Positions 2,710 to 55,751 of a stretch of DNA of 64,000 bases are shown piece by piece. The stretch comes from Candidatus Taylorbacteria bacterium RIFCSPLOWO2_01_FULL_48_100. Lineage in GTDB: Bacteria; Patescibacteriota; Minisyncoccia; Phycocordibacterales; UBA10002. A program made the position numbers and the translations under genes. Location: assembly GCA_001821135.1 (NCBI GenBank), contig MHSA01000011.1, forward strand, positions 3,042 through 67,041, written 5' to 3'. The notes under the pieces are model-generated. The model was given only the letters and a program-made list of their open reading frames with translations. It was not told the DNA's origin and ran no database searches. Each line of letters opens with the position of its first letter. Position 1 is the stretch's first letter.

Positions 2710-2726
2710 AAGAATGCCTTTATTAT

Positions 2727-2775
2727 ACCAATATACGAATGAATACCAATATACGAATGGCTACGAATGGGCTTG
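2727..2775. repeat. Tandem TACGAAT-containing element, copy 1 (ATACCAATATACGAATG x2, then GCTACGAATGG), immediately upstream of a -35 box
   Basis: Direct repeats visible in the sequence. Related copies are at 23534-23578 and 29143-29188. Confidence 0.6.
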
Positions 2776-3749: not shown

Positions 3750-4217
3750 ATGAAAGAAATCCTTTCTCACAGCATCGCAGACACCGCGAAGTTTGCGCAA
3801 GAGTTTCTTGCTGGGCTGTTTCCATGTGCAGATTCGTCGACAGTTGTTGGGTTATACGGAGATCTCGGTTCGGGCAAGACCGCGTTTGTTCAGCAGATTG
3901 CGAAAGCACTCGGCGCGCGCGGCTCTGTCCAAAGCCCGACTTTTGTCATTATGAAAAAATATGCGCTAAAAAATCCCCCCTCACTCCCCCCTTTATTAAA
4001 GGGGGGATATAGAGGGGATTTACAACTTGTCCATATAGACGCCTACCGTTTAGACAGCGCCACGGATTTAAAAAAACTCGGCTGGGATGCGCTCTCAAGC
4101 GACCATAGTAATCTCATTTTCATAGAATGGGCAGACCGAGTCGCCGACATTTTACCGCTTGACCATATTAAACTCCGCTTTGAGTTTGTAGATGATACAA
4201 CTCGCAAGATATCGTAA
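3750..4217 (+). CDS. tsaE: tRNA threonylcarbamoyladenosine biosynthesis ATPase TsaE (YjeE), carrying a ~17-aa in-frame palindromic-repeat insertion
   Basis: P-loop GDLGSGKT, SPTF motif and HIDAYRL motif are present. The insertion KNPPSLPPLLKGGYRGD is encoded by the palindromic element at 3968-4021. Confidence 0.75.
   Translation: MKEILSHSIADTAKFAQEFLAGLFPCADSSTVVGLYGDLGSGKTAFVQQIAKALGARGSVQSPTFVIMKKYALKNPPSLPPLLKGGYRGDLQLVHIDAYRLDSATDLKKLGWDALSSDHSNLIFIEWADRVADILPLDHIKLRFEFVDDTTRKIS
3968..4021. repeat. G/C-rich palindromic repeat element, copy A (AAATCCCCCCTCACTCCCCCCTTTATTAAAGGGGGGATATAGAGGGGATTT), in-frame inside tsaE
   Basis: Nested inverted repeats. Shares the AAATCCCCTCC...GGAGGGGATTT module with copies at 35846, 55199 and 55722. 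Confidence 0.6.
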
Positions 4218-4285
4218 AACTTAGCGTAATCTTCCACCCGCCAACCCACCTTATTTTTATGTGCGTATAACTTATATAAAAACAC

Positions 4286-4325
4286 CACATCAATATAGTA
4301 CGCGACCGCGTACTATATTGATGTG
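4286..4325. repeat. Perfect 19-bp-arm palindrome CACATCAATATAGTACGCG-AC-CGCGTACTATATTGATGTG. Probably a terminator for the minus-strand gene 4386-4958, and related to the palindrome at 5006-5043.
   Basis: Read directly from the sequence. On the minus strand it is followed by GTGTTTTTA. Confidence 0.6.
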
Positions 4326-4385
4326 GGTAAATTGTTAGACAATCAATAATGAAATAACTAGAAGATTTACGAGAGAAGTTAGAAG

Positions 4386-4958
4386 TTACGGAGGATATAC
4401 TTCAAAATAATCACGAAGCACGCGGTCGTTTTCTATTGCTTCTGCAATCACATACAACAAATCTTTTCCTATTTTGAAATCCGCTTTGAGGAGCGCAATG
4501 AAATCCTCGCAGTCGTGTGGATACACCCACACACTATCTTGTAGCCACTTAAAACCGATTGCTTGGAGCGTGTTCCGTACTTTGTCCCGCAACTCTTTTT
4601 GTTTTTCTGGAATATCAAAAATAAGCACGCGCCATTTGCCGTCCCATTTTTCAGGTTGAGGAAGTTTATACTCGCATTTTTTCCACTCGCACAATTTCTC
4701 TTTTCCTTTCAGCGTTAATTCAAGAAATTTTTTATTCCGGCGGAGCAGTCCATTTTTTACGAGTCGTTCTCGCGCCGCAAGAACCGAGCGGTACTTTTTC
4801 TTTTGTTCGGCACTGTCCATCATTTTATACATTTTATACACACTCCCCGCGAGCATCTGTGTAGTCATTTCAACTAACGATTCTGCCGCGGCAAGCATCG
4901 TACGCTGTAGCCGTGTATTTCGTACTCGCTCCATTACTTTTTTCTCAAGCATTCCCAT
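4386..4958 (-). CDS. PaaX-like transcriptional regulator (N-terminal winged helix plus C-terminal Cas2/VapD-fold domain)
   Basis: 190 aa. The segment VLIFDIPEKQKELRDKVRNTLQAIGFKWLQDSVWVY follows the hydrophobic-FD[IV]-basic...Q.SV[FW] pattern of Cas2/PaaX C-terminal domains. Confidence 0.45.
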   Translation of the reverse strand: MGMLEKKVMERVRNTRLQRTMLAAAESLVEMTTQMLAGSVYKMYKMMDSAEQKKKYRSVLAARERLVKNGLLRRNKKFLELTLKGKEKLCEWKKCEYKLPQPEKWDGKWRVLIFDIPEKQKELRDKVRNTLQAIGFKWLQDSVWVYPHDCEDFIALLKADFKIGKDLLYVIAEAIENDRVLRDYFEVYPP

Positions 4959-5005
4959 ATTATTTGTTTTTCTTTTTGATAGATGTAGTGCAAGTTACAA
5001 GGGGT

Positions 5006-5043
5006 GTGTTTTTAAGTATATCAATATAGTGCGCGGTCGCAAG
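5006..5043. promoter_or_regulatory. Degenerate copy of the 4286-4325 palindrome (ATCAATATAGTGCGCGGTCGCAAGTTATATTGAT), about 50 bp upstream of the PaaX-like gene start. Candidate operator.
   Basis: It shares the ATCAATATA outer arms and the GCGCG-CGC centre with the downstream palindrome. Confidence 0.4.
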
Positions 5044-5270
5044 TTATATTGATATTGACTGATAGAATGAGGTTGTGGTAGGATTTTGGGCAGAGAGACA
5101 CAGAAGTTCCTCTTAGATTTCTGCGCCTCGCAGAGCGGGGGCGGGAAGCGTACGGCGTGTTGCCTGAAAGGGCGGCGCAACGGAGCGCTGAAAGGCGAAT
5201 GAACTTTGAAAACACAAGTTCCGTTTGCCCTGAAAGGGGCGAAAGAACAAAAACCTGAAAGGGTTATAGT

Positions 5271-6083
5271 ATGGACTACTGGAAAAGAGATGAACAAAAC
5301 GATGTTACGCTCCTGTTATTCAAACCAGGCGAGCAGGCATCAGAAGATTGTCATAGAGCTTTTGCGATTCTCAGGGAGGTTGAACTCACTGAAACAGAAA
5401 AGGTTCTCTCAATACTGGGAAAGAAAAATAAGCGACCACATCATGGCGGAGATTTGTACCAGTCCCCCAACTTGGGAGATGCTCCCTTGGAGACGGTGCG
5501 CCGAATCATTGCGGCAACACTCATTGTGTGCCGTGTCGAATGGTTCACTTTTGTGAATAGTATTGTTGAAATCACAAATCACAATAGTAGCAGGTCTCCT
5601 CATTTTCGTTACGGCGCGGTTCTCGGTCTTCTTGATGGGTTTTTGTATCCAGATCTGTTTTTGGGAGACGAAGATGATGAAGAAAAAACCTTGCCGTTTT
5701 ACGAGGACATTGGCCCGTGTTGCATATACACAGCAATACTGCTTTGTATATTGAAACTCACTTGGTGGTGTCCAGACGAAAACGAGGAAGACGGCCATCA
5801 ACTCTCAAAACAGCAATCTGGAGAGCTGTCTAACCTAATTAGCAAGTGTCTAGACGAACCTAAGTTAGGTGTCGTTGGAACTCACCCACGGATGCTTGCA
5901 ATATCGCGGTTCCTCACCGAAGTGGCAGTCCGTTACGATGAGGAAGACAGCGAGGGAGGTTCGTTTCGTTCTGAATGGATAGAGGCAATTGCAAATGGAT
6001 TTCTTTATAAAATGTTCGGTAAACTATCCTTCCAGAATCAAGTGGAGTTGGTGAACGAGGCCATTGTGGACTTAAACGGTTGA
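5271..6083 (+). CDS. Hypothetical protein
   Basis: 270-aa ORF with no recognisable domain. It is preceded by four CTGAAAGG repeats and followed by a terminator hairpin. Confidence 0.45.
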   Translation: MDYWKRDEQNDVTLLLFKPGEQASEDCHRAFAILREVELTETEKVLSILGKKNKRPHHGGDLYQSPNLGDAPLETVRRIIAATLIVCRVEWFTFVNSIVEITNHNSSRSPHFRYGAVLGLLDGFLYPDLFLGDEDDEEKTLPFYEDIGPCCIYTAILLCILKLTWWCPDENEEDGHQLSKQQSGELSNLISKCLDEPKLGVVGTHPRMLAISRFLTEVAVRYDEEDSEGGSFRSEWIEAIANGFLYKMFGKLSFQNQVELVNEAIVDLNG

Positions 6084-6142: not shown

Positions 6143-8656
6143 ATGATCTCAACGATGGCTGAAAAACAGAACAAGCGGCTGGTGCTTATAGATGCGCACG
6201 CGATACTGCATCGCGCATATCATGCGTTGCCGGAGTTTAGTAATAGCAAAGGCGAACCGACGGGCGGGCTCTATGGGCTTGCGGCGATGCTTATTAAAAT
6301 TATTGCGGATTTAAAACCCGACTATCTTGCTGCAGCGTACGATTTGCCGAAGCCGACTTTTCGGCATACTGCGTACAAAGAGTACAAAGAAGGGCGGGCG
6401 AAGGCAGACGATGCGCTCATTTCACAAATGAAACGCTCGCGCGAGATTTTTGAAGCGTTTGGAATCCCGATTTACGACAAAGAAGGGTTTGAAGCGGATG
6501 ATATTCTCGGTACGATTGTAGAAAAGTTACAAGTTACACGCTACAAGTTACAAGTTGATATAGTTATCGCGTCTGGCGATATGGACACCCTACAATTAGT
6601 TGATGGAAAAAAAGTGCAAGTGTACACACTCAAAAAAGGGATTAATGACACGGTTTTGTATGACGAAGAAAAAGTAAGAGAACGCTATGGATTTGGTCCA
6701 AAACTTTTACCGGATTTTAAGGGGTTGAAAGGCGACCCGTCGGATAATATAAAAGGAATAAAAGGGATTGGCGATAAAACTGCGACCGAACTCATACAAA
6801 AATTCGGCTCGGTTGAGGAAATCTATAAGAAGTTGAAGAAAGATAGGGGTATATTTGAGAAAGAAGGAATAAGTGCGCGAATGATTGGACTATTGGATGC
6901 GGGAAAAGAAGATGCTGAGTTTTCTAAAATACTCGGAACTATTCGGCGCGATGCGCCGATTGAATTCGCACTTCCTGAAAAGCCGTGGCGTGAGTGTGCG
7001 AATGTGGGTAATGCAGAAAAGTTATTTCAAGAGTTGGAGTTTCGCAACCTTGGGCAGAGGTTGCGGGCGGCGATATCAAAAGTTTCTTCATCTCGCCCTT
7101 TTCAAGGGGGAGTACCCGAGCGAAGCGAGGGGGAGGGGGTGGTTTCTGCAGAAATTAAATCACCCCTCCGCCCAGCACTTTCTTCAGAAAGTGCTGGGCA
7201 CCTCCCCTTAATCAAGGGCAGGATGAAAGAAAAAGAATTTTCCGACCTCTCCATCGCCCTTTGGCTCATCAATTCCAACCTAACAAACCCGACCGCGGAC
7301 GATGTGTGTAATTTTGCAGGAACGAAAGATGTGAGCGTGGCGCGCGCGAAAATTCTTGCGGAACTGAAAACGCGCGGCCTCGCGCGCGTATTTGAAGAGA
7401 TTGAAAAACCACTCATTCCTGTTGTTGAAAAAATGAACGCCCGCGGCGTGAAAATGGATACAAAGTATCTTGCCGTGCTTTCTACAGAGTACCACCGCGA
7501 GCTTGCTGCGCTGAAAAAAGAAATCTGGAGTATGGCTGGAACCGAATTTAATGTAAATTCACCAAAACAGCTTGGCGAACTTTTGTTTGTAAAAATGGGG
7601 CTTAAGGCGGCGCGACAGAAGAAGACGGCAGGAGGCGCGCTTTCAACACGCGAAAGCGAGCTTGAAAAGATGCGCGATTTGCACCCAATTATTGCGAAGA
7701 TTCTTGAGTACCGCGAGTTTCAGAAACTACTCTCAACCTATATTGACGCGCTTCCAGAATCGGTAGATACGCACGGTCGCTTGCACGCGTCGTTTTTGCA
7801 GGCGGGAACGACGACGGGGCGAATGTCGTCGCAAAATCCGAACTTGCAAAATATCCCCATTCAGACCGCGCGCGGCAGGCGGATTCGGAACGCATTCGTC
7901 GCGGATAATGGCTGTGCGCTCCTCGCGTTTGATTACTCGCAAGTAGAACTTCGCGTTGCGGCAATTCTTTCTGGAGACCAGAAACTTATTGAAATCTTCA
8001 AGAAAGGGGAAGATGTACATACTGCGGTGGCGGCGGAAGTTTTTGGTGTCGCGCCAGAAAAAGTGACTAAAGAAATGCGCCGACAGGCGAAAGTAATTAA
8101 CTTCGGAATTTTGTACGGTATGGGAGTGAATGCGTTGCGCGCTACACTCGGAGATGTAGAAACTCCAGTATCGCGCGCGGACGCGCAGAAATACTTGGAC
8201 GAATATTTCGCGCGCTTTCCAGTGCTCGCCGCGTATTTGGAAGAAACAAAAGCCGTCGCGCGCGAGCGCAGCTACACAGAGACCTTATTCGGGCGGCGCA
8301 GATATTTTGAGGCGCTCAATTCGCCGATTTCGTACATCCGCGCGGCAGCAGAGCGGCAAGTGATTAACGCGCCGATACAAGGCACTGCCGCAGATATCGT
8401 GAAAATTGCGATGGCTCGGGTGGCTGAATTTTTGCGAGACGAGAAATTAGACGAAAAAGCACGCTTGATTTTACAAGTGCATGATGAATTGGTATATGAA
8501 GTGAAAAAAGAGTCGGTTTCCGAGCTCGCGCCAAAAATACAAAAGATAATGGAGGGCGTGTTGTCTCCAGGGCAGTCGCGGGGTGTGCCGATTCTGGTAG
8601 AAGTGAGCGTCGGCGACAATTGGGGGGAGATGCGGAAGTTAGTGGAAAGTAGTTAG
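6143..8656 (+). CDS. polA: DNA polymerase I (5'-3' exonuclease domain plus family-A polymerase domain; no obvious 3'-5' proofreading domain)
   Basis: N-terminal LVLIDAHAILHRAYHA (5' nuclease). C-terminal family-A motifs DYSQVELR, the O-helix RRQAKVINFGILYG, and QVHDELV. Start placed at ATG 6143 (alternative 6155), after the upstream terminator. Confidence 0.9.
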   Translation: MISTMAEKQNKRLVLIDAHAILHRAYHALPEFSNSKGEPTGGLYGLAAMLIKIIADLKPDYLAAAYDLPKPTFRHTAYKEYKEGRAKADDALISQMKRSREIFEAFGIPIYDKEGFEADDILGTIVEKLQVTRYKLQVDIVIASGDMDTLQLVDGKKVQVYTLKKGINDTVLYDEEKVRERYGFGPKLLPDFKGLKGDPSDNIKGIKGIGDKTATELIQKFGSVEEIYKKLKKDRGIFEKEGISARMIGLLDAGKEDAEFSKILGTIRRDAPIEFALPEKPWRECANVGNAEKLFQELEFRNLGQRLRAAISKVSSSRPFQGGVPERSEGEGVVSAEIKSPLRPALSSESAGHLPLIKGRMKEKEFSDLSIALWLINSNLTNPTADDVCNFAGTKDVSVARAKILAELKTRGLARVFEEIEKPLIPVVEKMNARGVKMDTKYLAVLSTEYHRELAALKKEIWSMAGTEFNVNSPKQLGELLFVKMGLKAARQKKTAGGALSTRESELEKMRDLHPIIAKILEYREFQKLLSTYIDALPESVDTHGRLHASFLQAGTTTGRMSSQNPNLQNIPIQTARGRRIRNAFVADNGCALLAFDYSQVELRVAAILSGDQKLIEIFKKGEDVHTAVAAEVFGVAPEKVTKEMRRQAKVINFGILYGMGVNALRATLGDVETPVSRADAQKYLDEYFARFPVLAAYLEETKAVARERSYTETLFGRRRYFEALNSPISYIRAAAERQVINAPIQGTAADIVKIAMARVAEFLRDEKLDEKARLILQVHDELVYEVKKESVSELAPKIQKIMEGVLSPGQSRGVPILVEVSVGDNWGEMRKLVESS
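7095..7224. repeat. G/C-rich modular palindromic repeat element, copy B, inserted in-frame in the polA inter-domain linker (encodes ~43 aa: RPFQGGVPERSEGEGVVSAEIKSPLRPALSSESAGHLPLIKGR)
   Basis: Module GGGGGAGTACCCGAGCGAAGCGAGGGGGAGGGGGTG is identical to copy D at 39550-39642. Module CAGCACTTTCTTCAGAAAGTGCTGGGCACCTCCCC is shared with copy E. The ending CCTTAATCAAGGGCAGGAT is shared with copies C and D. Confidence 0.75.
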
Positions 8657-11390: not shown

Positions 11391-11448
11391 AACCACCCCT
11401 CCGCCTCGCGGACTCGGCACCTCCCCTTATGTTAAGGGCAGGATGGAA
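11391..11448. repeat. G/C-rich palindromic repeat element, copy C (intergenic)
   Basis: CACCCCTCCGCC and CCTTATGTTAAGGGCAGGATGG modules are shared with copies B and D. Confidence 0.6.
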
Positions 11449-12334: not shown

Positions 12335-12460
12335 GGGTCGGCGGGACGAAGCGTCCGCGCTTCGTCCCGCAATCATCCGTTGTTTTTTCAGTTCTTTGGT
12401 TCGGGAATTCGCGAAAGCGAATTCCCAAAAACCTCGCGCAGTCGCGAGGTTTTTTGTTTG
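12335..12460. terminator. Cluster of three consecutive hairpins (GGGACGAAGCG-TCCGC-GCTTCGTCCC; GGGAATTCGCG-AAA-GCGAATTCCC; AACCTCGCG-CAGT-CGCGAGGTTTTTT), between convergent genes
   Basis: Three perfect stem-loops, the last followed by a T-run. Likely a bidirectional terminator. A structured sRNA cannot be excluded. Confidence 0.55.
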
Positions 12461-14897: not shown

Positions 14898-15353
14898 CTA
14901 GAAGCCGAGATACTCCATTATTTTCTGCGGGAGCGGTTCATGGAGTTCTTCTTCTTGTAAACGCTCGGCAAGCGCGGCGCGAATAATATTCGGATGTATT
15001 TCTTCAATCGGAATTGAGACGAGCAGAGATAGTTTCTTTTTTTGTTTAAGAATTAGGCGAGGAAATCCGTCGCGTGCTTCAACCCAAAAGGAAGTAAGTA
15101 TGTCGTACGGATAATGCGAATCGCCAAAAACAATTTCTGTATCAGTAATGAACACGCGAACCGCGCGTGGCGCGCGGTTCGCAAAAAAGAAGAAACTGAG
15201 CGCCGCGAGCGCGATAACGATTGCAAACAAGATATTACCTAGAAGCGCGGATGCGGCAATGAGCGCAAGCGCAATAATACCGCTCGCCAGAAACCACTCC
15301 GCGGTCTTTTCCGTATGCCTATATTCCGGAGTTGTCCATGAGATGTGGGGCAT
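14898..15353 (-). CDS. Hypothetical small membrane protein (two TM helices)
   Basis: 151-aa ORF; hydrophobic helices at residues 20-70. Confidence 0.45.
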   Translation of the reverse strand: MPHISWTTPEYRHTEKTAEWFLASGIIALALIAASALLGNILFAIVIALAALSFFFFANRAPRAVRVFITDTEIVFGDSHYPYDILTSFWVEARDGFPRLILKQKKKLSLLVSIPIEEIHPNIIRAALAERLQEEELHEPLPQKIMEYLGF

Positions 15354-16345: not shown

Positions 16346-16741
16346 ATGTATAATGGCGCAATGCGCTTTATAGGCATTGATTACGGAACAAAGCGGGTGG
16401 GGGTGGCGGTGTCGGACGAGGAGGGGAAAATTGCGTTTCCGCATGTGGTCTTGGCGAATGACGAGAATCTGGTAACCGCGCTCGCGGCGCTGTGCCGCGA
16501 GCGCGGCGTGTCGGAAATTGTTGTCGGCGACTCGCGCGATTTTGCAGGCGAGCCGAATAAAATAACTGCGCACGTTAAAAAGTTTACAAAAGAAATTGTA
16601 GATGCAACGGGGCTTCCGGTACACAGCGAACCCGAGTTTTGGTCTTCGGCGCAAGCCGAGCGGTGGCAAGGCAAGACCGAAAAATTAGACGCTTCCGCCG
16701 CCGCTATTATTTTGCAAAGTTTTTTGGATAGAAATTGTTAA
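16346..16741 (+). CDS. ruvX: Holliday junction resolvase-like protein RuvX/YqgF
   Basis: MRFIGIDYGTKRVGVAVSD...IVVGDSRDF is the YqgF signature. The 5' extension of the tracked ORF overlaps the tRNA-Ser, so the start is set at the internal ATG 16346 (alternative 16361). Confidence 0.8.
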   Translation: MYNGAMRFIGIDYGTKRVGVAVSDEEGKIAFPHVVLANDENLVTALAALCRERGVSEIVVGDSRDFAGEPNKITAHVKKFTKEIVDATGLPVHSEPEFWSSAQAERWQGKTEKLDASAAAIILQSFLDRNC

Positions 16742-16888: not shown

Positions 16889-17674
16889 ATGGCTATGAAT
16901 AAAGTAGTCGTCGGTCAATCGGTTACGGCTGGCCAAATGAAGGACTTCTGGCGTCAGGTTGACGATGGAAGTATTGGTGGAGATTATTTTCAAGATTTTC
17001 TCGCACACAAACTGGAAAGGAAAGATGGGAACACGGTATCAGAAGTGACAACACCAAAAATCGTCATCCCAAACCTCCTCTCCACCCCTCCCACCCTCGC
17101 CGACTGGCTCAAAGCCCGAGAGGAACTGCACAAGTTCCTTACAGGTGAGCAGGTGATTCTGCGCGATATCTTCGCCCTCACGGACGAAGAACTCGCCAGC
17201 ACCACGCTGATGCCCGCCTTTCGTCCTGCAGGTGCCACCAACCGTAATGCGATTTATTGGAAAATCAAAATTGGGGAGAACAAACCCTATGAAGAAATAG
17301 ATGTAATGAAGTACACAAACAGTCAAGGTCCAAAACAACCCGAGCTGTACATCATCAACCGCTCCGTTACACCAGATGACGACACGGTCGGCGACAAAGC
17401 CAAGAGTCCCAACCAACTCATCGCTCACAACAAGCTATGGCTCGGACTCTTCTGCTGGTGCGATGCAGATACTCTGCATCATGTCATTACCGGAGAGACC
17501 CTTGACCAAAAAACTTGGACATGGTTCCCAAACGACCGTCTCCGCTACGCCAAGGTTGCGCTCGGCTACTGGAACCCGCTCAACCGCCGGGTCTACCTCT
17601 ACTGGCGCTATGCCGTCTATTGCAATCCGAACAACGGCGCTCGCTCAGCAAAAAAAGTTCCCATTAAATCTTGA
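16889..17674 (+). CDS. DGR target (variable) protein; the C-terminal ~35 aa are encoded by the VR
   Basis: 261 aa. The C-terminus ...RYAKVALGYWNPLNRRVYLYWRYAVYCNPNNGARS aligns with the TR-encoded NGKVANGNWNPNNRQVYLNWNYADNCNPNNGARS. Confidence 0.8.
   Translation: MAMNKVVVGQSVTAGQMKDFWRQVDDGSIGGDYFQDFLAHKLERKDGNTVSEVTTPKIVIPNLLSTPPTLADWLKAREELHKFLTGEQVILRDIFALTDEELASTTLMPAFRPAGATNRNAIYWKIKIGENKPYEEIDVMKYTNSQGPKQPELYIINRSVTPDDDTVGDKAKSPNQLIAHNKLWLGLFCWCDADTLHHVITGETLDQKTWTWFPNDRLRYAKVALGYWNPLNRRVYLYWRYAVYCNPNNGARSAKKVPIKS
17542..17648 (+). repeat. DGR variable repeat (VR)
   Basis: About 84% identical to the TR at 17938-18044. It differs from the TR only where the TR has A (apart from one edge position). 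It ends in the shared GC-rich CGGCGCTCGCTCAG (IMH-like). Confidence 0.85.
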
Positions 17675-17937
17675 ACCTTTCCCCCTTAAATCTTACTCGC
17701 TTCTTCGGTGGGTAGGTCATCGCCACTGTGGATACCCATGGTGGCGATTTTGTTACACTAACAACGGCTGTGAAATTGGTCCAGCACTTACCGTAAGTGC
17801 TGGATAACAATTTGCCAAAAAAGAAATTGCTTGCTGCATTTTTATACAATGCTCGCTCTACCCCGAGATAACACAGAAAACTGTGTAAACGATTTTCGGT
17901 GATACGGATGAAGACGCGGCACAATGAGGCACCGTCT

Positions 17938-18044
17938 CCACAACGGCAAGGTTGCGAACGGCAACTGGAACCCGAACAACCGCCAGGTCTACCTCAACTG
18001 GAACTATGCCGACAATTGCAATCCGAACAACGGCGCTCGCTCAG
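17938..18044 (+). repeat. DGR template repeat (TR)
   Basis: Non-coding copy of the VR with many AAC codons. All informative mismatches are TR-A to VR-N. Confidence 0.85.
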
Positions 18045-18066
18045 AAATTTCTCGTACCAAGGAGCC

Positions 18067-18386
18067 GTTACGGCTCCTTGGTCGTTTCGTAAGTTATCCA
18101 ACCGTTTAACATCTTTGCGATTTCAACGAGTTGCGATGACAAGCGGAGATATATTTTTTCCGTGAAAATACCAAGTTCATATTCTGTTCGAATGAGGTGA
18201 ATTACTCGGTGAACTTGAATGCGCGCCCCCTTTAAGAATAGGAATCTTTTCTTTTCTTGAAGTCAAAGATGCCGCAATCGTTGTGGCGAGTAATTCTAGA
18301 GTATATTTCTCAACCGTCGCATGAATTCCTAATTTGTCTCCCTTCGGCAATTTCTTCCCAATCTCGTAAATCTCTTTATGCAACAA
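18067..18386 (-). pseudogene. avd: DGR accessory variability determinant (avd, four-helix bundle), interrupted by a frameshift at a C5/G5 homopolymer near 18226-18230
   Basis: The N-terminal 69-aa ORF (EIYEIGKKLPKGDKLGIHATVEKYTLELLATTIAAS) matches the Avd/23S-IVS family. The +1 frame continues as ...YELGIFTEKIYLRLSSQLVEIAKMLNGWI, which resembles the Avd C-terminal helix. Confidence 0.55.
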
Positions 18387-23533: not shown

Positions 23534-23578
23534 ACATACGAATATACGAACAATACGAATCTACGAATGGCTACGAAT
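23534..23578. repeat. Tandem TACGAAT element, copy 2 (CATACGAATATACGAACAATACGAATCTACGAATGGCTACGAAT); its 3' end forms the rluA-like start codon (ATGGCTACGAAT = MATN)
   Basis: Near-identical to the inverted copy at 29143-29188; related to 2727-2775. Confidence 0.6.
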
Positions 23579-29142: not shown

Positions 29143-29188
29143 TTTCGTAGCCATTCGTAGATTCGTATTGTTCGTATATTCGTATATG
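29143..29188. repeat. Tandem TACGAAT element, copy 3, in inverted orientation (reverse complement CATATACGAATATACGAACAATACGAATCTACGAATGGCTACGAAA), directly before the nusG start
   Basis: About 95% identical to copy 2 on the opposite strand. Confidence 0.6.
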
Positions 29189-29732: not shown

Positions 29733-30155
29733 ATGGCAAAGAAATTACTGCGAAAGTTGAAGTTGATTGTTCCAGGTGCGGCGGCAACGCCCGCGCCGCC
29801 TTTGGGTCCCGCTTTGGGGCAGGCGAAGGTAAACATCGGTGAGTTCGTGACTCGCTTCAATGCGGCGACGCAAAAGATGAAGGGCGAGACGCTTCCTGTG
29901 GAAGTGCATATTTTTGACGACAAGTCGTTTGACCTAAAAATAAAAGCGCCGACTGTTTCCAGTATGCTTCTCAAGGCAATCGGCAAAGAGAAAGGTGCGG
30001 GCAAGCCGCCGGTAGAAAAAGCGGGAACAATTACTAAGGCGAAATTGCGCGAAATTGCAGAAAAGAAAATGCAGGACTTGAATACAACCACAATTGAAGC
30101 CGCCGAAAAAATAGTCGCCGGTAGCGCGCTGTCTATGGGGATAGAAATTAAATAG
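29733..30155 (+). CDS. rplK: 50S ribosomal protein L11
   Basis: KLIVPGAAATPAPPLGPALGQAKVNIGEFV...FDLKIKAPTVSSMLLKA is the L11 signature. Confidence 0.9.
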   Translation: MAKKLLRKLKLIVPGAAATPAPPLGPALGQAKVNIGEFVTRFNAATQKMKGETLPVEVHIFDDKSFDLKIKAPTVSSMLLKAIGKEKGAGKPPVEKAGTITKAKLREIAEKKMQDLNTTTIEAAEKIVAGSALSMGIEIK

Positions 30156-30708
30156 CGCGTTCCAAATCAACCCACACATATCTTAATCCAGTTTTCGTGT
30201 CAGTTCTTTCTTCGCGGAATACTTCGTGCGTGAAGTCCTTGTTCCAGTCGTGGAAGAAAACATCACCCTCCGCATCGCTTTCAACGAGCGTGAGGTAGAG
30301 TTTGTCGGTGAGCGGGAGCGCTTGTTTATAAATCTCTCCGCCACCGATGATGAAGATTTCCTTTTTGTTTTCCTCCTGCCCTTTTCCAAAGGGGAGGTGT
30401 CTCCCATAGGGAGACGGAGGGGTGTCTTCTGTTTTCTGCGCAATTTGTATCGCTTCTTCAAGCGACCCCGCAACCACCACTCCTTCCTTCTTAAAATACG
30501 GATTGCGCGTTATAACGATATTTGTGCGGTTTGGAAGTGCTTTGCCGATAGAGTCAAATGTCTTTCTGCCCATAATAACCGTATGTCCAGTCGTGAGCAC
30601 CTTAAACCGCTTAAGGTCGTCCGAAATGCGCCAAAGGAGCGCGCCCGCCTTTCCAATCGCGCGATTGTTCCTCCCCACCGCGGCAATGATGCTGATGCAC
30701 GCTTCCAT
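30148..30708 (-). CDS. folA: Dihydrofolate reductase carrying a ~24-aa in-frame palindromic-repeat insertion
   Basis: ISIIAAVGRNNRAIGKAGALLW...DLKRFKVLTTGHTVIMGRKTF ... IGGGEIY are DHFR motifs. The insertion EDTPPSPYGRHLPFGKGQEENKKE is encoded by the palindromic element at 30379-30426. Confidence 0.85.
   Translation of the reverse strand: MEACISIIAAVGRNNRAIGKAGALLWRISDDLKRFKVLTTGHTVIMGRKTFDSIGKALPNRTNIVITRNPYFKKEGVVVAGSLEEAIQIAQKTEDTPPSPYGRHLPFGKGQEENKKEIFIIGGGEIYKQALPLTDKLYLTLVESDAEGDVFFHDWNKDFTHEVFREERTDTKTGLRYVWVDLERAI
30379..30426. repeat. G/C-rich palindromic repeat element, copy H (CCCTTTTCCAAAGGGG ... GTCTCCCATAGGGAGAC), in-frame inside folA
   Basis: Two inverted-repeat modules in the style of the CCCTTATCATAAGGGGG modules of copies B, C and D. 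Confidence 0.55.
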
Positions 30709-33310: not shown

Positions 33311-34498
33311 ATGAAAGACCTACAAATCAAAAAATTGATGGATGCCGAGAAAAAGCGGCAGAAAAGCGTGATTAACCTAATTGCCTCGGAAAATTATGTT
33401 TCCAAAGATGTGCTTGAGGCACTTGGAAGCGAGCTCACCAATAAATACGGCGAAGGGTATCCTGGTAAACGCTACTATCGCGGGTGCGCGGTTGTTGACG
33501 AGGTAGAGCGCGCAGCGCGGAAGCGCGCGCTTGATTTGTTTGGGCTTACCGAAAAAGAATGGGGAGTTAATGTGCAACCATTATCGGGTTCGCCCGCCAA
33601 CTTCGCAGTGTATGCTGCACTTGTTCCAATTGGTGGAAAGGTGATGGGTATGTCGCTTGACCACGGCGGACACCTCACTCACGGCCAGCCCGTTTCTATG
33701 ACTGGAAAGGTGTGGAAGCAAGTGCCGTACGGATTGGATAAGGAAACCGAAAGATTGGATTACGAACACATTAAAAAGATTGCGACAGAAAACAAGCCCG
33801 CTCTTATCGTTGCGGGTTTTACTGCATACGCGCACATCATTGATTTTAAGAAGTTTCGCGAAATCGCGGATTTATGCAACGCGATTTTAATGGTAGATAT
33901 GTCGCATTTTGCTGGGCTAGTTGCAGGTGGAGAGTATCCATCGCCGTTTGCATATGCGGACATTGTAACGACGACAACTCACAAAACTCTACGAGGACCG
34001 CGCTCGGCGCTCATTTTCTCAAAAGAAGACGAACGAAAGTTGCCTAGAAAAATTGATAAAGCAATTCTACCAGGATTGCAGGGCGGTCCGCACTTCAACC
34101 AAATTGCGGCGGTGGCGGTGGCGCTCAAAGAGGCGAGTACGCCTTCGTTTAAGAAATACGCGGCGCAAGTGGTAAAGAACGCGCGCGCGCTCGCGGATGA
34201 ATTGCAAAAGCTCGGACACAGGATTGTAGAAGGCGGAACGGAAACGCACCTCTTGCGCATTGACACTTGGCTCGGCGGCCGCGGAATCGGGGGGCGGGAA
34301 GCCGCCGACAAACTTGAGGCGGCGGGGATTATCGTGAGTGAAAGCACTCTTCCATTTGATACGCGCGGTCCGGTAGACCCATCGGGCATACGGCTCGGCA
34401 GTGCGGCAGAGACCACGCGTGGCAAAAAAGAGAAGGACTTTATAGCAATCGCGCGGAAAGTTGATAGAATACTCCGTAATGGTAACAGAGAGCATTAA
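33311..34498 (+). CDS. glyA: Serine hydroxymethyltransferase
   Basis: LIASENYVSKDVLEALGSELTNKYGEGYPGKRYY ... VTTTTHKTLRGPR (PLP lysine region). Confidence 0.95.
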   Translation: MKDLQIKKLMDAEKKRQKSVINLIASENYVSKDVLEALGSELTNKYGEGYPGKRYYRGCAVVDEVERAARKRALDLFGLTEKEWGVNVQPLSGSPANFAVYAALVPIGGKVMGMSLDHGGHLTHGQPVSMTGKVWKQVPYGLDKETERLDYEHIKKIATENKPALIVAGFTAYAHIIDFKKFREIADLCNAILMVDMSHFAGLVAGGEYPSPFAYADIVTTTTHKTLRGPRSALIFSKEDERKLPRKIDKAILPGLQGGPHFNQIAAVAVALKEASTPSFKKYAAQVVKNARALADELQKLGHRIVEGGTETHLLRIDTWLGGRGIGGREAADKLEAAGIIVSESTLPFDTRGPVDPSGIRLGSAAETTRGKKEKDFIAIARKVDRILRNGNREH

Positions 34499-36152
34499 AC
34501 AGGCGGTTGCGGAAGCACTCACAAAACTTGGGATTAAAAATCCCGATGTGTCGTTGGAACACCCAGAGGAATTGTCGCACGGCGATTATTCCACGAATGT
34601 TGCGCTTCGGTATGCGAAAGAACTTAAAAAAAGCCCGCAGACAATCGCAGAAGATATAATACGATATATCGTACTACAGAAGATTCCAGCACTTGCGCGC
34701 GCGGAAGCGGCGGCAGGTTTTGTGAACTTTTTTCTCGCCGGAGAATTCTTTGCGGAACGAATACAAGAGATTTTGGAAAAGAAAGATGGTTTTGGAAAGC
34801 AGGATGTTGGAAAGGGAAGGAAAGTGGTTGTAGAATTTTCGTCTCCGAACATTGCAAAGCCGTTTACGATTGGGCATTTGCGCTCAACAATTATCGGAGA
34901 CGCAGTTGCGAAAACGCTCTCTTTTCTAGGATATTCTGTTATCCGCGACAATCACCTCGGTGATTGGGGTACGCAATTCGGAAAAATGATTGTTGCGATT
35001 AAGAAGTGGGGAGATATTCAGAAAATTGCAGAAAACGCGGCTCCTGTTAGAGCGTTGGTGGATTTGTATGTCTGTTTTCACGCTGAAGCAAAAACGAACA
35101 TCGCGCTTGAAGATGAGGCGCGTGAGTGGTTTGTGAAATTGGAGAAAGGAGATGAAGAAGCGCGCGGTTTGTGGAAGCAGTGCGTAGCGTGGTCAATGAA
35201 GGAGTTTGAGTCGCTGTACAAACGGCTTGGCGTTTCTTTTGATACGATGCATGGAGAGAGTTTTTTTGAAGATAAAATGCGCGCTGTGGTGGAGGATCTT
35301 GAACGGAAAAATCTCTTAAAAGAAAGCGAAGGCGCGCGGCTTGTATTTTTTCCTAGCGATTCCTTGCCGCCGCTTATGATAATAAAAAAAGACGGCGGGA
35401 CATTGTACGCGACTCGCGACCTGGCGACTGATGCATGGAGGAAAAGAGAGTATGGCGACGGGGTAATTATCGTCAATGAGACGGGCGGAGAGCAATCGCT
35501 GTATTTCAAGCAGGTTTTTATGCTGGAAGAAATGCTCGGCTGGTTTGCGCGCGGCGAGCGGGTGCACATCGGGCACGGGCTCACGCGTGGGAAAGAAGGG
35601 AAGATGAGCACGCGGGAGGGCAACACGATTTGGCTTGAAGATGTGCTTGACGAGGCAGTGAAGCGCGCGGAAGCAATAAATAAAGAGACGGCAGAAATAG
35701 TTGGAATCGGCGCGCTTAAGTTTAACGACTTGAAGCGGGAGGCGAAACAAGACACCATTTTTGATTGGAATGATGTGCTGAATATGAAAGGCGACTCTGG
35801 ACCGTACTTGCAGTATTCTTATGCGCGGGCAATGTCGGTAATCAGAAAATCCCCTCCTCAGTTGAGGAGGGGTGCCGAGTTCGCGAGGCGGGGTGGTGGT
35901 GTTACTACATTAGAACGCCTCCTTTACCGATTTCCTGAAGTCGTACTGCGCGCGGGCAAGGACTACGCGCCGCATTTTATTGCGACTTATCTTATTGAAT
36001 TAGCGGGCGCGTTTAACAATTGGTATGCGAAGGAGCGCATTCTTAATGCTGGGGAGGAAACGGAATACCGCCTCGCGCTCACCGCCGCATTCGCGCAGGT
36101 TATGAAAAATGGACTTTGGCTACTTGGCATCGCCGCGCCGGAGAAGATGTAA
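34479..36152 (+). CDS. argS: Arginine--tRNA ligase carrying a ~19-aa in-frame palindromic-repeat insertion near residue 455
   Basis: SSPNIAKPFTIGHLRSTIIGDA (HIGH-like), GDWGTQFGKMI, and a C-terminal DALR domain. The insertion SPPQLRRGAEFARRGGGVT is encoded by repeat copy G. Confidence 0.9.
   Translation: MVTESIKQAVAEALTKLGIKNPDVSLEHPEELSHGDYSTNVALRYAKELKKSPQTIAEDIIRYIVLQKIPALARAEAAAGFVNFFLAGEFFAERIQEILEKKDGFGKQDVGKGRKVVVEFSSPNIAKPFTIGHLRSTIIGDAVAKTLSFLGYSVIRDNHLGDWGTQFGKMIVAIKKWGDIQKIAENAAPVRALVDLYVCFHAEAKTNIALEDEAREWFVKLEKGDEEARGLWKQCVAWSMKEFESLYKRLGVSFDTMHGESFFEDKMRAVVEDLERKNLLKESEGARLVFFPSDSLPPLMIIKKDGGTLYATRDLATDAWRKREYGDGVIIVNETGGEQSLYFKQVFMLEEMLGWFARGERVHIGHGLTRGKEGKMSTREGNTIWLEDVLDEAVKRAEAINKETAEIVGIGALKFNDLKREAKQDTIFDWNDVLNMKGDSGPYLQYSYARAMSVIRKSPPQLRRGAEFARRGGGVTTLERLLYRFPEVVLRAGKDYAPHFIATYLIELAGAFNNWYAKERILNAGEETEYRLALTAAFAQVMKNGLWLLGIAAPEKM
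35846..35903. repeat. G/C-rich palindromic repeat element, copy G (AAATCCCCTCCTCAGTTGAGGAGGGGTGCCGAGTTCGCGAGGCGGGGTGGTGGTGTT), in-frame inside argS
   Basis: Shares the AAATCCCCTCCTCA(A/G)(C/T)TGAGGAGG module with copies E and F. Confidence 0.65.
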
Positions 36153-39522: not shown

Positions 39523-39549
39523 TTCGTGATTTTTTGTATTCTTTCCTCT

Positions 39550-39642
39550 CGCCCTTATCATAAGGGGGAGTACCCGAGCGAAGCGAGGGGGAGGGGGTGT
39601 CAGAAAAAAAACACCCCTCCCTTTCCCTCCCCTTAGGTAAAG
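39550..39642. repeat. G/C-rich modular palindromic repeat element, copy D (intergenic, between ileS and recO)
   Basis: CCCTTATCATAAGGGGGAGTACCCGAGCGAAGCGAGGGGGAGGGGGTG ... ACACCCCTCCC ... CCCCTTAGGTAAAGGGCAGGGTAT. The GGGGGAGTACCCGAGCGAAGCGAGGGGGAGGGGGTG module is identical to copy B. Confidence 0.75.
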
Positions 39643-39661
39643 GGCAGGGTATAAAGAAAAT

Positions 39662-55198: not shown

Positions 55199-55346
55199 CA
55201 AATCTCCCACTCAGTTGAGGGGGAGTACTTGAGTCCGTCTAATGCGGACGAATAGGAAGGGTGGGTTCGGGAAAAACACCACCACCTCCCCCAGCACTTT
55301 CTAAAGAAAGTGCTGGGTACTCCTCCTCAATTAATGAGGAGATTTA
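55199..55346. repeat. G/C-rich modular palindromic repeat element, copy E (largest, ~148 bp)
   Basis: AAATCTCCCACTCAGTTGAGGGGGAG ... CAGCACTTTCTAAAGAAAGTGCTGGGTACTCCTCCTCAATTAATGAGGAGATTT. Shares modules with copies B, F and G. Confidence 0.7.
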
Positions 55347-55652: not shown

Positions 55653-55721
55653 TACACAAAACTGTCCAGTAAAGAATATACACTACACCGTTTATCGCGT
55701 CAACATTTTGTATATGTTCCA

Positions 55722-55751
55722 AAATCCCCTCCTCAACTGAGGAGGAGATTA
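55722..55751. repeat. Palindromic repeat element, copy F (AAATCCCCTCCTCAACTGAGGAGGAGATT)
   Basis: Minimal module also present in copies E and G. Confidence 0.6.

What the first reader, a model, noticed from the sequence alone, without database searches (positions are those of the whole stretch)
7095..7224. 130-bp modular palindromic repeat inserted in-frame in the polA inter-domain linker (family copy B)
The polA ORF stays open through a 130-bp G/C-rich composite palindrome. It adds about 43 aa (RPFQGGVPERSEGEGVVSAEIKSPLRPALSSESAGHLPLIKGR) between the 5'-nuclease and polymerase domains. Its first module is 38/39 identical to intergenic copy D (39550-39642). Its CAGCACTTTCTTCAGAAAGTGCTGGG hairpin module recurs in copy E. 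So the same mobile palindrome family exists both intergenically and inside an essential gene without disrupting the frame.
Basis: partly seen in the sequence, partly recalled or inferred. Interest (0 to 1): 0.65.

Follow-up and report, generated by a model that had tools for sequence, protein, structure and literature searches.

The report
Triplex-motif palindrome translated inside polA
A repeated, hairpin-forming DNA element of the BoxC / triplex-motif kind sits in-frame in the flexible linker of DNA polymerase I of a Candidatus Taylorbacteria (CPR) bacterium, and copies of the same family also sit in-frame in three other essential genes of this window, much as the palindromic elements of Rickettsia do.

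Summary
polA (6155..8656, +) reads through a nested palindrome at about 7083-7235. The palindrome folds at -82 kcal/mol (z = -8), and only one of its six frames is open. It is an inverted pair of about 40-60-nt units. Each unit has a pyrimidine block, a complementary purine block and a mirror purine block. That is the design of the E. coli BoxC/PIT/"TMECO" intrastrand-triplex repeats, except that the second loop is expanded into an extra hairpin.

The window holds eight copies, and four are in-frame in essential genes: tsaE, polA, folA and argS. Orthologs show empty sites for the tsaE, folA and polA copies. AlphaFold models the polA insert as a disordered loop.

A relative whose polA differs at 18.6% of nucleotides has 0/130 differences inside the element, so the constraint acts on the DNA and not on the peptide.

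The closest known kinds are BoxC/TMECO for the design and the Rickettsia palindromic elements for the in-frame behaviour. I rate it a new variant of a known kind.

One unexpected lead emerged. In relatives, a DUF559 (Vsr-like) endonuclease gene lies exactly between two inverted units. The same pairing recurs in E. coli (ycjD), Deinococcus, Sinorhizobium and other taxa. This suggests a cognate nuclease, comparable to the RAYT transposase that is associated with REP repeats.

The parts
6155..8656 (+). polA CDS (833 aa): 5'-nuclease domain, short linker and polymerase domain. The 3'-5' exonuclease-like domain is almost absent.
   Evidence: ORF list. 100% match to P0001 with Pfam PF02739/PF01367/PF00476. 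Gene call. Taq alignment: query 7-281 and 409-824.
7083..7091 (+). T-rich left tail (TTTCTTCAT). It is the inverted counterpart of the right tail, and its boundary is uncertain.
   Evidence: Pairs with 7223-7235 in the fold. Comparable tails flank other copies.
7092..7112 (+). Left unit, hairpin 1: pyrimidine block CTCGCCCTT, loop TTC, purine block AAGGGGGAG, with one conserved G.G mismatch.
   Evidence: Sequence. Fold. Triplex-motif finder hit 7092-7135.
7115..7131 (+). Extra hairpin CCCGAGCGAAGCGAGGG. It occupies the position of the 3-nt second loop of a canonical triplex motif.
   Evidence: Identical at 39573-39589. Related CCGAG-N-CGAGG modules in other copies.
7132..7141 (+). Left unit 'head': GGAGGGGGTG, the mirror repeat of the purine block. 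It pairs with the head of the right unit.
7142..7160 (+). Central A/T-rich loop GTTTCTGCAGAAATTAAAT. It is the only part that varies between near-identical strains (positions 7146 and 7160).
7161..7169 (+). Right unit 'head': CACCCCTCC.
7171..7198 (+). Extra hairpin CCCAGCACTTTCTTCAGAAAGTGCTGGG (12-13-bp perfect stem), in the second-loop position of the right unit.
   Evidence: Perfect hairpin. 27/28 identity with 55290-55317.
7201..7222 (+). Right unit hairpin: CCTCCCCTT, loop AATC, AAGGGCAGG, with one conserved C.C mismatch.
   Evidence: Pattern match. Triplex-motif finder hit 7161-7222 on the minus strand.
7223..7235 (+). A-rich right tail (ATGAAAGAAAAAG). Its boundary is uncertain and it may be native linker.
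3971..4021 (+). Family copy inside tsaE (3750..4217). It adds a net 36 nt (12 aa, PPSLPPLLKGGY) that are absent from two orthologs.
11394..11442 (+). Single unit, intergenic, after the gene ending at 11349. It has the commonest unit sequence of the family.
30375..30424 (-). Single unit in-frame inside folA (30148..30708, -). It lies within an insert of about 19-21 aa in the alphaE-betaE loop.
35846..35900 (+). Left-type unit in-frame inside argS (34461..36152). It occupies a variable loop and adds no net length.
39548..39649 (+). Intergenic inverted pair with the same architecture as the polA copy but without the second extra hairpin.
55199..55335 (+). Diverged intergenic inverted pair upstream of ftsK. 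It shares the CAGCACTTTC...GAAAGTGCTG hairpin.
55721..55750 (+). Short intergenic hairpin of the same sub-type as the argS copy.
   Evidence: (D14).

Best explanation
The 7083-7235 stretch is an inverted, head-to-head pair of two short repeat units that belong to a dispersed family.

Design of the units (shown). Each unit is built like a BoxC/PIT/TMECO intrastrand-triplex motif. It has a pyrimidine block, a short loop, the complementary purine block, a second loop, and a mirror-repeat purine block. In the polA copy, the second loop of each unit has been expanded into an additional small hairpin.

Where the family sits (shown). Most copies lie between genes. A minority survive inside genes. All verified genic copies preserve the reading frame, carry no stop codon in the frame used, and lie in a linker or variable loop (six of the seven genes; the N-terminal low-complexity region of the LTD protein in L024). 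In polA the element is translated into about 43-51 residues rich in Gly, Pro, Ser, Arg and Glu. AlphaFold models them as a disordered tether between the 5'-nuclease and polymerase domains.

Where the constraint acts (shown). The nucleotide sequence is maintained far better than the host gene. Where genic copies do differ, the changes lie in hairpin loops and alter the amino acid. The constraint is therefore on the DNA or RNA element, not on the peptide.

How copies arrive (inferred). Lineage-specific filled and empty sites show gain and loss. The mechanism is unknown. The best candidate is a DUF559 (Vsr-like PD-(D/E)xK) endonuclease whose gene is bracketed by two inverted units in relatives and in distant phyla. 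It may act by structure- or sequence-specific cleavage followed by copying during repair. This has not been demonstrated.
For: Anatomy and non-randomness. The loose triplex-motif finder gives 11 hits at 8 sites in the window, including both halves of the polA insert, and 0 in 20 shuffles.

In-frame genic copies:
- polA, folA and argS ORFs.
- tsaE carries a 12-aa insert absent from two orthologs.
- folA carries an insert of about 19-21 aa relative to solved DHFRs and to basal Parcubacteria orthologs.
- Relatives carry copies in ComEC and in LTD surface proteins, in both orientations.

Only 1 of 6 frames of the polA element is open. In the LTD gene, the unit's loop is AAAA instead of the usual AGGTT. 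In that frame the usual loop would create a TAA stop.

Permissive position:
- The PolA linker is hypervariable.
- The insert falls between the Taq-aligned domains.
- In the AlphaFold model, residues 316-360 are coil with pLDDT 22-33, while the flanks are at 80-90.
- The DHFR insert is also coil with lowered pLDDT.
- The peptide signature of the hairpin is enriched 40-230-fold in these same loops across orthologs.

Conservation:
- 0/130 and 1/153 differences in the element against 18.6% in the rest of polA.
- The folA copies differ only in hairpin loops, and those changes are non-synonymous (sequences).

Turnover: the spacer upstream of tsaE is empty here, filled in L001, and filled differently in L002.

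Similarity to BoxC/TMECO:
- The published consensus is CCCTCNCCC N3-6 GGGNGAGGG N3 GGGNGAGGG, and inverted pairs always combine two subtypes.
- The CPR unit reads CCCTCTCGCCCTT-TACCT-AAGGGGGAGAGGG-TAG-GGTGAGGGGGTG.

DUF559 link:
- 9 of about 65 loci that were fetched only for containing a unit carry a DUF559 gene bracketed by units.
- E. coli ycjD lies 168 nt from published TMECO no. 9.
- 8 of 10 DUF559 loci from other phyla have a triplex motif within 600 nt, and 6 of 10 within 52 nt. Background is 1-3 further motifs per 50 kb.
Against: - No expression data exist. Translation of the insert is inferred from the open frame and its conservation.
- The halves of the polA copy meet the triplex-motif definition only if the second loop may be 19-31 nt long. 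Published searches allow 1-6 nt (the ITxF finder) or 0-10 nt (Hoyne et al.). Triplex formation by this copy is therefore doubtful, and it may act simply as a hairpin or cruciform.
- I saw no target-site duplication at the two sites where filled and empty alleles could be compared. No transposase or DUF559 gene lies in the 64-kb window.
- No empty polA allele of this species was found in metagenomes.
- Near-identity of the element between lineages that are 18.6% diverged could also reflect recent transfer or gene conversion rather than selection.
- The argS copy adds no net length, so at least there 'insertion' is not the whole story.
Confidence: 0.8

Rival explanations
1. Sequencing or assembly artefact. 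A collapsed or chimeric palindrome, or a hidden frameshift, would make the open frame illusory.
For: Strong hairpins are error-prone. Two near-identical strains differ only inside the element, with 2 differences in 153 nt against 0 in 2319 nt.
Against: The same insert, at the same site and in the same frame, occurs in four independent assemblies from different projects. The downstream polymerase domain stays in frame and is fully conserved.
Confidence: 0.02
2. The stretch is a native, selected protein segment. Under this reading the linker extension has a function in PolA, for example as a tether, an interaction site or a regulatory segment, and the DNA repeats elsewhere are secondary.
For: The peptide is identical in a relative with 86% protein identity. 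Inter-domain linker length can matter for coordination of the 5'-nuclease and polymerase domains (general knowledge).
Against: - Orthologs at 73-77% identity lack it or carry unrelated palindrome-coded peptides at the same place.
- The conservation extends to synonymous positions and loops, with 0/130 nucleotide differences.
- In the folA copies the stems are kept while the loop changes alter amino acids.
- AlphaFold gives pLDDT 22-33 and no structure.
- The same DNA modules occur between genes.
Confidence: 0.07
3. The element acts at RNA level inside polA. The -82 kcal/mol structure, with its SD-like and anti-SD-like runs (GGAGGGGGTG / CACCTCC), would pause ribosomes between the two domains. 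Alternatively, the right end (AAGGGCAGG-ATG) would allow internal initiation of a Klenow-like fragment.
For: Strong predicted structure. An ATG directly follows the right hairpin at 7223. The nucleotide-level conservation exceeds what coding requires.
Against: - The spacing between AGG and ATG is essentially zero, which is unlike a Shine-Dalgarno arrangement.
- Identical units occur in non-coding positions and in both orientations within genes. A polA-specific RNA role therefore cannot explain the family.
- E. coli PIT elements showed no promoter or terminator activity, as reported in PMC4666352.
Confidence: 0.06
4. The element is an ordinary MITE or REP mobilised by a classical transposase (an IS element or a RAYT) encoded elsewhere in the genome. 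Under this reading the DUF559 association is incidental.
For: Terminal inverted repeats, inverted doublets, presence/absence polymorphism, and mostly extragenic positions after stop codons.
Against: - No target-site duplication was seen.
- There is no GTAG or CGTC head.
- No transposase appears among the Pfam-annotated genes of the window and its flanks.
- The only gene repeatedly bracketed by units is DUF559, in at least 3 genomic contexts in CPR and in several other phyla.
Confidence: 0.1

Closest known systems
BoxC / PIT elements / TMECO intrastrand-triplex motifs of E. coli and other bacteria (Hoyne et al. 2000; Holder et al. 2015, PMC4666352)
   Same: - Three-block design: pyrimidine block, complementary purine block and mirror purine block.
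- Nearly the same core sequence: E. coli GGGGAGAGGGTTAGGGTGAGGGG against CPR GGGGGAGAGGGTAGGGTGAGGGGG.
- One conserved mismatch in the hairpin.
- Dispersed in many copies, with very high identity between copies.
- Frequent inverted pairs made of two subtypes.
- Flanking DNA is hypervariable between strains.
- No known mobilising gene.
   Different: - In E. coli the motifs are reported as always intergenic. Here four of eight copies in 64 kb are translated inside essential genes.
- In the polA copy the 3-nt second loop is replaced by hairpins of 17 and 28 nt. Triplex folding of this copy is therefore uncertain.
- The association with DUF559 genes is not reported in that literature.
Rickettsia palindromic elements (RPE; Ogata et al. 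2000 Science; Ogata et al. 2002 Genome Res; summarised in PMC10969869)
   Same: - Palindromic repeats of about 100-150 bp.
- Inserted in-frame in unrelated housekeeping genes as well as between genes.
- The insertion points are compatible with the protein fold.
- Copies are ancient enough to be shared by related species.
   Different: - Different phylum, and the design differs: the CPR units are G/C-rich triplex-type units that are modular and variable in length, with no fixed-length family. I made no direct sequence comparison with RPEs.
- Each RPE family encodes a conserved peptide. Here the stems are conserved, and the frames used differ between genes.
- The CPR element is more conserved than its host gene.
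REP / BIME / REPIN elements and their RAYT transposases (PMC2817692, PMC3333891)
   Same: - Short imperfect palindromes, single or in inverted doublets, and mosaic arrangements.
- Mostly located just after stop codons.
- A small nuclease gene bracketed by two inverted repeats: RAYT there, DUF559 here.
   Different: - No GTAG or CGTC tetranucleotide head.
- The bracketed gene is a PD-(D/E)xK Vsr-like endonuclease (PF04480), not a HUH Y1 transposase.
- REPs are extragenic by definition.
G/C-rich palindromic clusters and hairpin elements of organelle genomes (for example sponge mitochondria, PMC2800124; Volvox organelle genomes, PMC2670323)
   Same: Selfish-looking hairpin repeats that spread in compact genomes.
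   Different: They occur in eukaryotic organelles, have unrelated sequences and have no associated nuclease gene. I considered them only as an analogy and did not test them here.

Membership tests
BoxC/PIT/TMECO intrastrand-triplex motif repeats | Three consecutive blocks: a pyrimidine block, its complementary purine block after a 3-6-nt loop, and a mirror-repeat purine block. | tested here: met
   My own finder (9-nt blocks, at most 1 hairpin mismatch, at most 2 mirror mismatches) hits both halves of the polA insert (7092-7135 +, 7161-7222 -) and 6 other sites. It gives 0 hits in 20 shuffles.
BoxC/PIT/TMECO intrastrand-triplex motif repeats | A short second loop (3 nt in the TMECO consensus; 1-6 nt in the ITxF finder and 0-10 nt in Hoyne et al.), so that the third block can fold back onto the hairpin. 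| tested here: not met
   In the polA copy the second loops are 19 and 31 nt long and form hairpins of their own. The feature is met by other copies of the same family: 39613-39649, 3973-4007, and the doublets in L017, L027, L030 and L034.
BoxC/PIT/TMECO intrastrand-triplex motif repeats | Match to the consensus CCCTCNCCC N3-6 GGGNGAGGG N3 GGGNGAGGG. | tested here: inconclusive
   Related CPR units come close, for example CCCTCTCGCCCTT..AAGGGGGAGAGGG-TAG-GGTGAGGGGG. The polA blocks are CTCGCCCTT / AAGGGGGAG / GGAGGGGGTG and CCTGCCCTT / AAGGGGAGG / GGAGGGGTG. They are similar to the consensus but do not match it exactly.
BoxC/PIT/TMECO intrastrand-triplex motif repeats | Dispersed multicopy family with very high identity between copies, and inverted pairs that combine two subtypes. 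| tested here: met
   8 sites in the window. 39 and 26 further stretches in genome and metagenome scans. An identical 49-mer occurs in many contexts. Pairs combine the CTCGCCC-type and CCTGCCC-type units.
BoxC/PIT/TMECO intrastrand-triplex motif repeats | Intergenic location ('always located intergenically' in E. coli MG1655). | tested here: not met
   The polA, folA, argS and tsaE copies lie inside ORFs and in frame.
BoxC/PIT/TMECO intrastrand-triplex motif repeats | Formation of an intrastrand triplex by the isolated strand (CD/NMR). | not testable with these tools
   Only Watson-Crick folding could be computed.
Rickettsia palindromic elements (RPE) | A palindromic repeat of about 100-150 bp that is inserted in-frame in unrelated protein-coding genes and also occurs between genes. 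| tested here: met
Rickettsia palindromic elements (RPE) | The insertion site is compatible with the fold, in a surface loop or linker. | tested here: met
   PolA: pLDDT 22-33 and coil, between domains. DHFR: alphaE-betaE loop. TsaE and ArgRS: variable loops.
Rickettsia palindromic elements (RPE) | Sequence homology to one of the RPE families, with a conserved encoded peptide. | not tested
   No RPE sequences were available for comparison. The host is a CPR bacterium. The frames used differ between genes (sequences), so there is no single conserved peptide.
REP/REPIN with RAYT | Short imperfect palindromes, often as inverted doublets. | tested here: met
REP/REPIN with RAYT | A conserved GTAG or CGTC head, and a Y1 (RAYT) transposase gene flanked by the repeats. 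| tested here: not met
   The heads are CACCCCTCC / GGAGGGGTG. No Y1 transposase appears among the Pfam-annotated genes of the window. The bracketed gene is DUF559. The rest of the genome could not be searched.
MITE | Terminal inverted repeats, a target-site duplication, and a parent IS with the same ends. | tested here: inconclusive
   Inverted ends are present. No duplication was seen at the two sites where filled and empty alleles could be compared. There is no IS. A possible gene-bearing parent is the unit-DUF559-unit arrangement of about 0.5 kb.

The most novel reading that the evidence does not exclude
DUF559 (YcjD-like, Vsr-fold) endonucleases may be the long-missing cognate proteins of BoxC/PIT/triplex-motif repeats across bacteria.

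Under this reading, 'unit - DUF559 gene - inverted unit' is the autonomous form. The heads face outward, and the gene's last codons and stop codon lie in the hairpin. Gene-less doublets and single units would be its non-autonomous derivatives, and these include the copies translated inside polA, folA, tsaE and argS. The system would parallel RAYT-REP but use a different nuclease fold. In CPR bacteria it would remodel loops of essential proteins.
Probability: 0.35. Interest if true: 0.82.

Novelty: new variant of a known kind. Interest (0 to 1): 0.62.

Why it matters
- In-frame 'protein-coding palindromes' were described as a peculiarity of Rickettsia. Here a second, unrelated reduced-genome lineage (CPR/Parcubacteria) shows the same behaviour. 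Four of eight copies in 64 kb lie in essential genes, and the same permissive loops are occupied repeatedly across many orthologs.
- The result connects that behaviour to BoxC/PIT/TMECO triplex motifs. These repeats have been known since the 1990s, but their origin, spread and function remain unexplained.
- The bracketing of DUF559 genes by these units in CPR, E. coli, Deinococcus and Sinorhizobium, and the motifs lying next to DUF559 genes in several other taxa, gives that old question a directly testable candidate.
- There is also a practical consequence. These inserts inflate and diversify the loops of CPR housekeeping proteins, and they can mislead alignment, phylogeny and domain annotation.

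Tried and rejected
- Rfam. No family matches the element. At gathering threshold the window gives only 5 tRNAs. At E <= 1 the region gives one weak chance hit, BTnc231, at 20 bits against a gathering score of 80.
- Empty polA allele of this species. An exact-flank pattern found 0 hits in metagenome contigs.
- Literature. I found no report of such elements in CPR/Patescibacteria. I found no report linking DUF559 or ycjD to repeats.
- Viral contigs. No DUF559 relative was found.
- Empty site for the DUF559 unit next to secG. None of the loci I held provided one.
- Shine-Dalgarno idea. The right tail is 14-30 nt from the next start codon in D and L001, and essentially 0 nt from the ATG in polA. 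I did not pursue it.
- Terminator idea for head-to-head pairs. They are flanked by a T-rich run on the 5' side and an A-rich run on the 3' side, so no U-tract follows the hairpin on either strand. Tail-to-tail doublets do have T-runs after the hairpin on both strands, but I did not test this further.
- Candidate genic copies on the opposite strand in L021, L038, L051 and L063. Their ORFs look spurious on inspection of the translations.
- Intein or intron. The insert is only 43-51 aa, and the Rfam search gave no intron match. I ran no protein-domain search on the insert.
- Target-site duplications. I looked for them at the tsaE site and at the spacer upstream of tsaE. None was convincing.


Full report
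**What is there**

The window is contig MHRG01000015 of a Candidatus Taylorbacteria (Parcubacteria, CPR) metagenome-assembled genome. polA runs from 6155 to 8656 on the + strand (833 aa) and stays open through the reported stretch.

The element is a nested palindrome. RNA folding of 7085-7235 gives -82.3 kcal/mol, against -48.9 +/- 4.1 for shuffles (z = -8.1). Its inverted T-rich and A-rich tails pair as well, so the element spans about 7083-7235 (153 nt, 51 codons) rather than 130 nt. Only one of its six reading frames is free of stops, and polA uses that frame.

**It is a repeat, and a genic one four times over**

- The 38-nt module 7104-7141 is repeated exactly at 39562-39599.
- The hairpin 7171-7198 recurs at 55290-55317 with one loop difference.
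- A right-half pattern matches 4 times in the window and never in 100 shuffles.

In all I count eight sites in the window. Four are intergenic: 11394-11442, 39548-39649, 55199-55335 and 55721-55750. Four lie inside essential genes and in frame: tsaE (3971-4021), polA, folA (30375-30424, minus strand) and argS (35846-35900).

**Anatomy**

All copies reduce to one unit, which I call U. It reads CACCCCTCC, then a short spacer or a variable small hairpin, then CCTCCCCTT, a 4-5-nt loop, AAGGGCAGG and an A-rich tail. A sister subtype reads CACCCCCTC ... CTCCCCCTT ... AAGGGCGAG.

Units occur in three arrangements:
- singly;
- head-to-head, as in polA and at 39548-39649;
- tail-to-tail, as in L017, L027, L030, L034, L006 and L013.

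The head is a mirror repeat of the hairpin's pyrimidine arm. On the other strand the unit therefore reads pyrimidine block, loop, purine block, loop, mirror purine block.

**Closest known family**

This is the design of the E. coli BoxC / PIT / TMECO intrastrand-triplex motifs. Their consensus is CCCTCNCCC N3-6 GGGNGAGGG N3 GGGNGAGGG. E. coli MG1655 has 23 copies, which are 'always intergenic'. Five inverted pairs always combine two subtypes. The flanks are hypervariable between strains. No link to mobile elements or to the function of flanking genes was found (PMC4666352).

CPR units such as CCCTCTCGCCCTT-TACCT-AAGGGGGAGAGGG-TAG-GGTGAGGGGGTG are close to the E. coli motif CCCTCGCCCCTTTGGGGAGAGGGTTAGGGTGAGGGG, even in sequence.

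A finder I wrote for the three-block design hits both halves of the polA insert and six other sites in the window, and nothing in 20 shuffles. The polA halves qualify only if the second loop may be long. In the left half it is 19 nt (TAC plus CCGAGCGAAGCGAGGG), and in the right half it is 31 nt. In both it forms an extra hairpin. I therefore describe the polA copy as built on the BoxC/TMECO design, not as a canonical member.

**Position in the proteins**

PolA:
- Alignment to Taq polymerase covers residues 7-281 (5'-nuclease) and 409-824 (polymerase). The insert is residues 314-357, and the intervening exonuclease-like domain is almost absent.
- Among 28 orthologs the linker slice ranges from 61 to 121 residues.
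- The ortholog at 86% identity has the same insert. Several orthologs at 70-76% identity (P0005, P0007, P0008, P0009, P0039) have short linkers without it. P0003 (75%) carries other palindromic modules at the same place.
- AlphaFold, with the ortholog alignment, models residues 316-360 as coil with pLDDT 22-33, between helices at 80-90. Its numbering starts 4 residues earlier than the gene call.

DHFR: the insert is about 19-21 residues in the alphaE-betaE loop, relative to solved DHFRs and to basal Parcubacteria orthologs. It is coil with lowered confidence.

TsaE: it has 12 extra residues that are absent from two orthologs.

ArgRS: the unit occupies a variable loop with no net gain in length.

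Relatives: units also sit in frame in ComEC, in the opposite orientation, and in LTD-domain surface proteins.

Across orthologs: a peptide signature of the CCCTT...AAGGG hairpin is 40-230 times denser in these three loops than elsewhere in the same proteins. It is present in 11/28 PolA, 13/36 DHFR and 3/20 ArgRS orthologs. Some inserts share whole modules. For example, DHFR 'GVPESARAGVV' resembles PolA 'GVPERSEGEGVV'.

**Selection acts on the nucleic acid**

- The polA genes of the window and of L001 differ at 18.6% of positions outside the element.
- Two strains whose polA genes are otherwise identical (0/2319) differ at two positions of the central loop.
- The folA copies of two lineages differ only in hairpin loops, and those changes alter amino acids (sequences).
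- In the LTD gene the unit has the loop AAAA in place of the usual AGGTT. In that frame the usual loop would give a TAA stop.

The stems and heads are thus maintained, the peptide is not, and genic copies are filtered for an open frame.

**Gain and loss**

- tsaE is filled here and empty in L001 and L002.
- The spacer upstream of tsaE is empty here. It carries a 125-nt pair in L001 and a different set of modules in L002.
- I saw no convincing target-site duplication.
- An exact-flank search for an empty polA allele of this species in metagenomes found nothing.
- No transposase is annotated in or around the window.

**An unexpected association**

Nine of the roughly 65 loci that were fetched only because they contain a unit also encode a protein of 117-124 aa that matches PF04480 (DUF559, E = 1e-34). 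This protein is related to the solved N. gonorrhoeae 'endonuclease-like protein' 3HRL. It is weakly related to the mobile-intron homing endonuclease 3R3P and to Vsr.

In every complete case the gene lies exactly between a unit and an inverted unit, with the heads outward. The start codon is about 40 nt after the A-rich tail of the upstream unit. In five of the six loci that include the gene's 3' end and its downstream flank, the last codons (TCP/SCP) and the TAA stop lie in the hairpin of the downstream unit. The exceptions are L053, where no unit hairpin follows the stop, and L019, where the ORF stops just before the hairpin. The arrangement occurs in at least three genomic contexts, two of them in one MAG. 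The gene-less tail-to-tail doublets look like this arrangement without the gene.

I then tested the idea outside CPR.
- E. coli ycjD (DUF559) lies 168 nt from TMECO no. 9 of the published list. Its own stop codon lies in a degenerate copy. The chance expectation for a TMECO that close to one gene is about 0.4%.
- Ten DUF559 loci from other phyla were taken from the plasmid collection. Eight have a strict triplex motif within 600 nt, and six have one within 52 nt.
- In 50 kb around the gene, Deinococcus proteolyticus has three motifs. Two of them bracket the gene at 18 and 3 nt, in the same heads-out orientation as in CPR.
- Sinorhizobium meliloti has six motifs in 50 kb, three of them within 150 nt of the gene.

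The searchable literature does not mention this link, and Holder et al. state that they found none. I treat it as a solid association and as a candidate mechanism, not as a demonstrated one.

**Verdict**

The feature is an inverted pair of BoxC/TMECO-like units, with expanded loops, translated as a disordered tether in the PolA linker. It is one of four such in-frame copies in this window.

It behaves like a Rickettsia palindromic element and is designed like a triplex motif. It departs from both: it is genic where BoxC is intergenic, and it is more conserved than its host gene. I rate it a new variant of a known kind, with moderate to high interest. Much of that interest comes from the DUF559 lead.

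Noticed in passing
window 17535-17651, 17931-18047, and the gene starting near 18415 (+): This is a diversity-generating retroelement. Two 117-nt repeats lie 396 nt apart, and 14 of their 15 mismatches are an A in the second copy (the template repeat) against another base in the first (the variable repeat). A reverse-transcriptase gene (RVT_1) lies next to them. Perfect hairpins follow each repeat, at 17780-17804 and 18056-18082.
   Followed up: yes
L018 288-641, L023 4642-4995 (-), L063 7975-8328, L019 5959-6333, L004 6874-7230, L053, L056, L065, L047; E. coli L072 6204-6761; L083 38722-39148; L084 24887-25528: DUF559 (PF04480, Vsr-like endonuclease) genes are bracketed by inverted triplex-motif units in CPR relatives, Deinococcus and Sinorhizobium. 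Such motifs also lie close to the gene in E. coli (ycjD, TMECO no. 9), Neisseria, Photobacterium, Azospirillum, Sphingomonas and Synechocystis. In five of the six CPR loci that include the gene's 3' end and downstream flank, the stop codon lies in the hairpin of the downstream unit.
   Followed up: partly
window 12341-12370, 15156-15182, 16476-16506, 27573-27596, 39772-39795, 39925-39955, 45121-45143 and others: The window has 25 perfect hairpins with stems of at least 9 bp, against about 1.6 in shuffles. Many are CGCG-rich palindromes unrelated to the family studied here. Several lie inside coding regions, for example in ruvX and in the gene at 39663-40252. I have no explanation for them.
   Followed up: no
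L061 5196-5410, L065 217-348, L071 191-322: These loci carry tandem arrays of the commonest 49-nt unit with an 83-nt period (2-3 copies). In L065 the array lies next to the 3' end of a DUF559 gene.
   Followed up: no
window 36160-39522 (IleRS; L044 11700-15062): The isoleucyl-tRNA synthetase is 1120 aa long and has a histidine-phosphatase (His_Phos_1) Pfam hit between its two tRNA-synt_1 stretches. This would be an unusual domain insertion.
   Followed up: no
window 4386-6083 compared with L001 1580-1585: Two extra genes lie between tsaE and polA in this genome, whereas the two genes are adjacent in L001. One is a PaaX_M/Cas2-like protein (4386-4958, -). The other is a 270-aa ORF with no Pfam match (5271-6083). 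Perfect palindromes flank them, at 4285-4326 and 5011-5053.
   Followed up: partly
Genome contigs records CAYIUC01, CAYORD01, CAYTVT01: MAGs titled 'uncultured Candidatus Saccharibacteria' carry this repeat family. At least one of them (CAYORD01, locus L025) carries a folA copy at the same site as in this window. They are probably mislabelled Parcubacteria close to Taylorbacteria.
   Followed up: no
window 2724-2768, 23536-23578, 29144-29185: A separate A/T-rich repeat (ATACGAAT-type; 42 nt, with 100% complementary arms 5.6 kb apart) is unrelated to the G/C-rich family.
   Followed up: no
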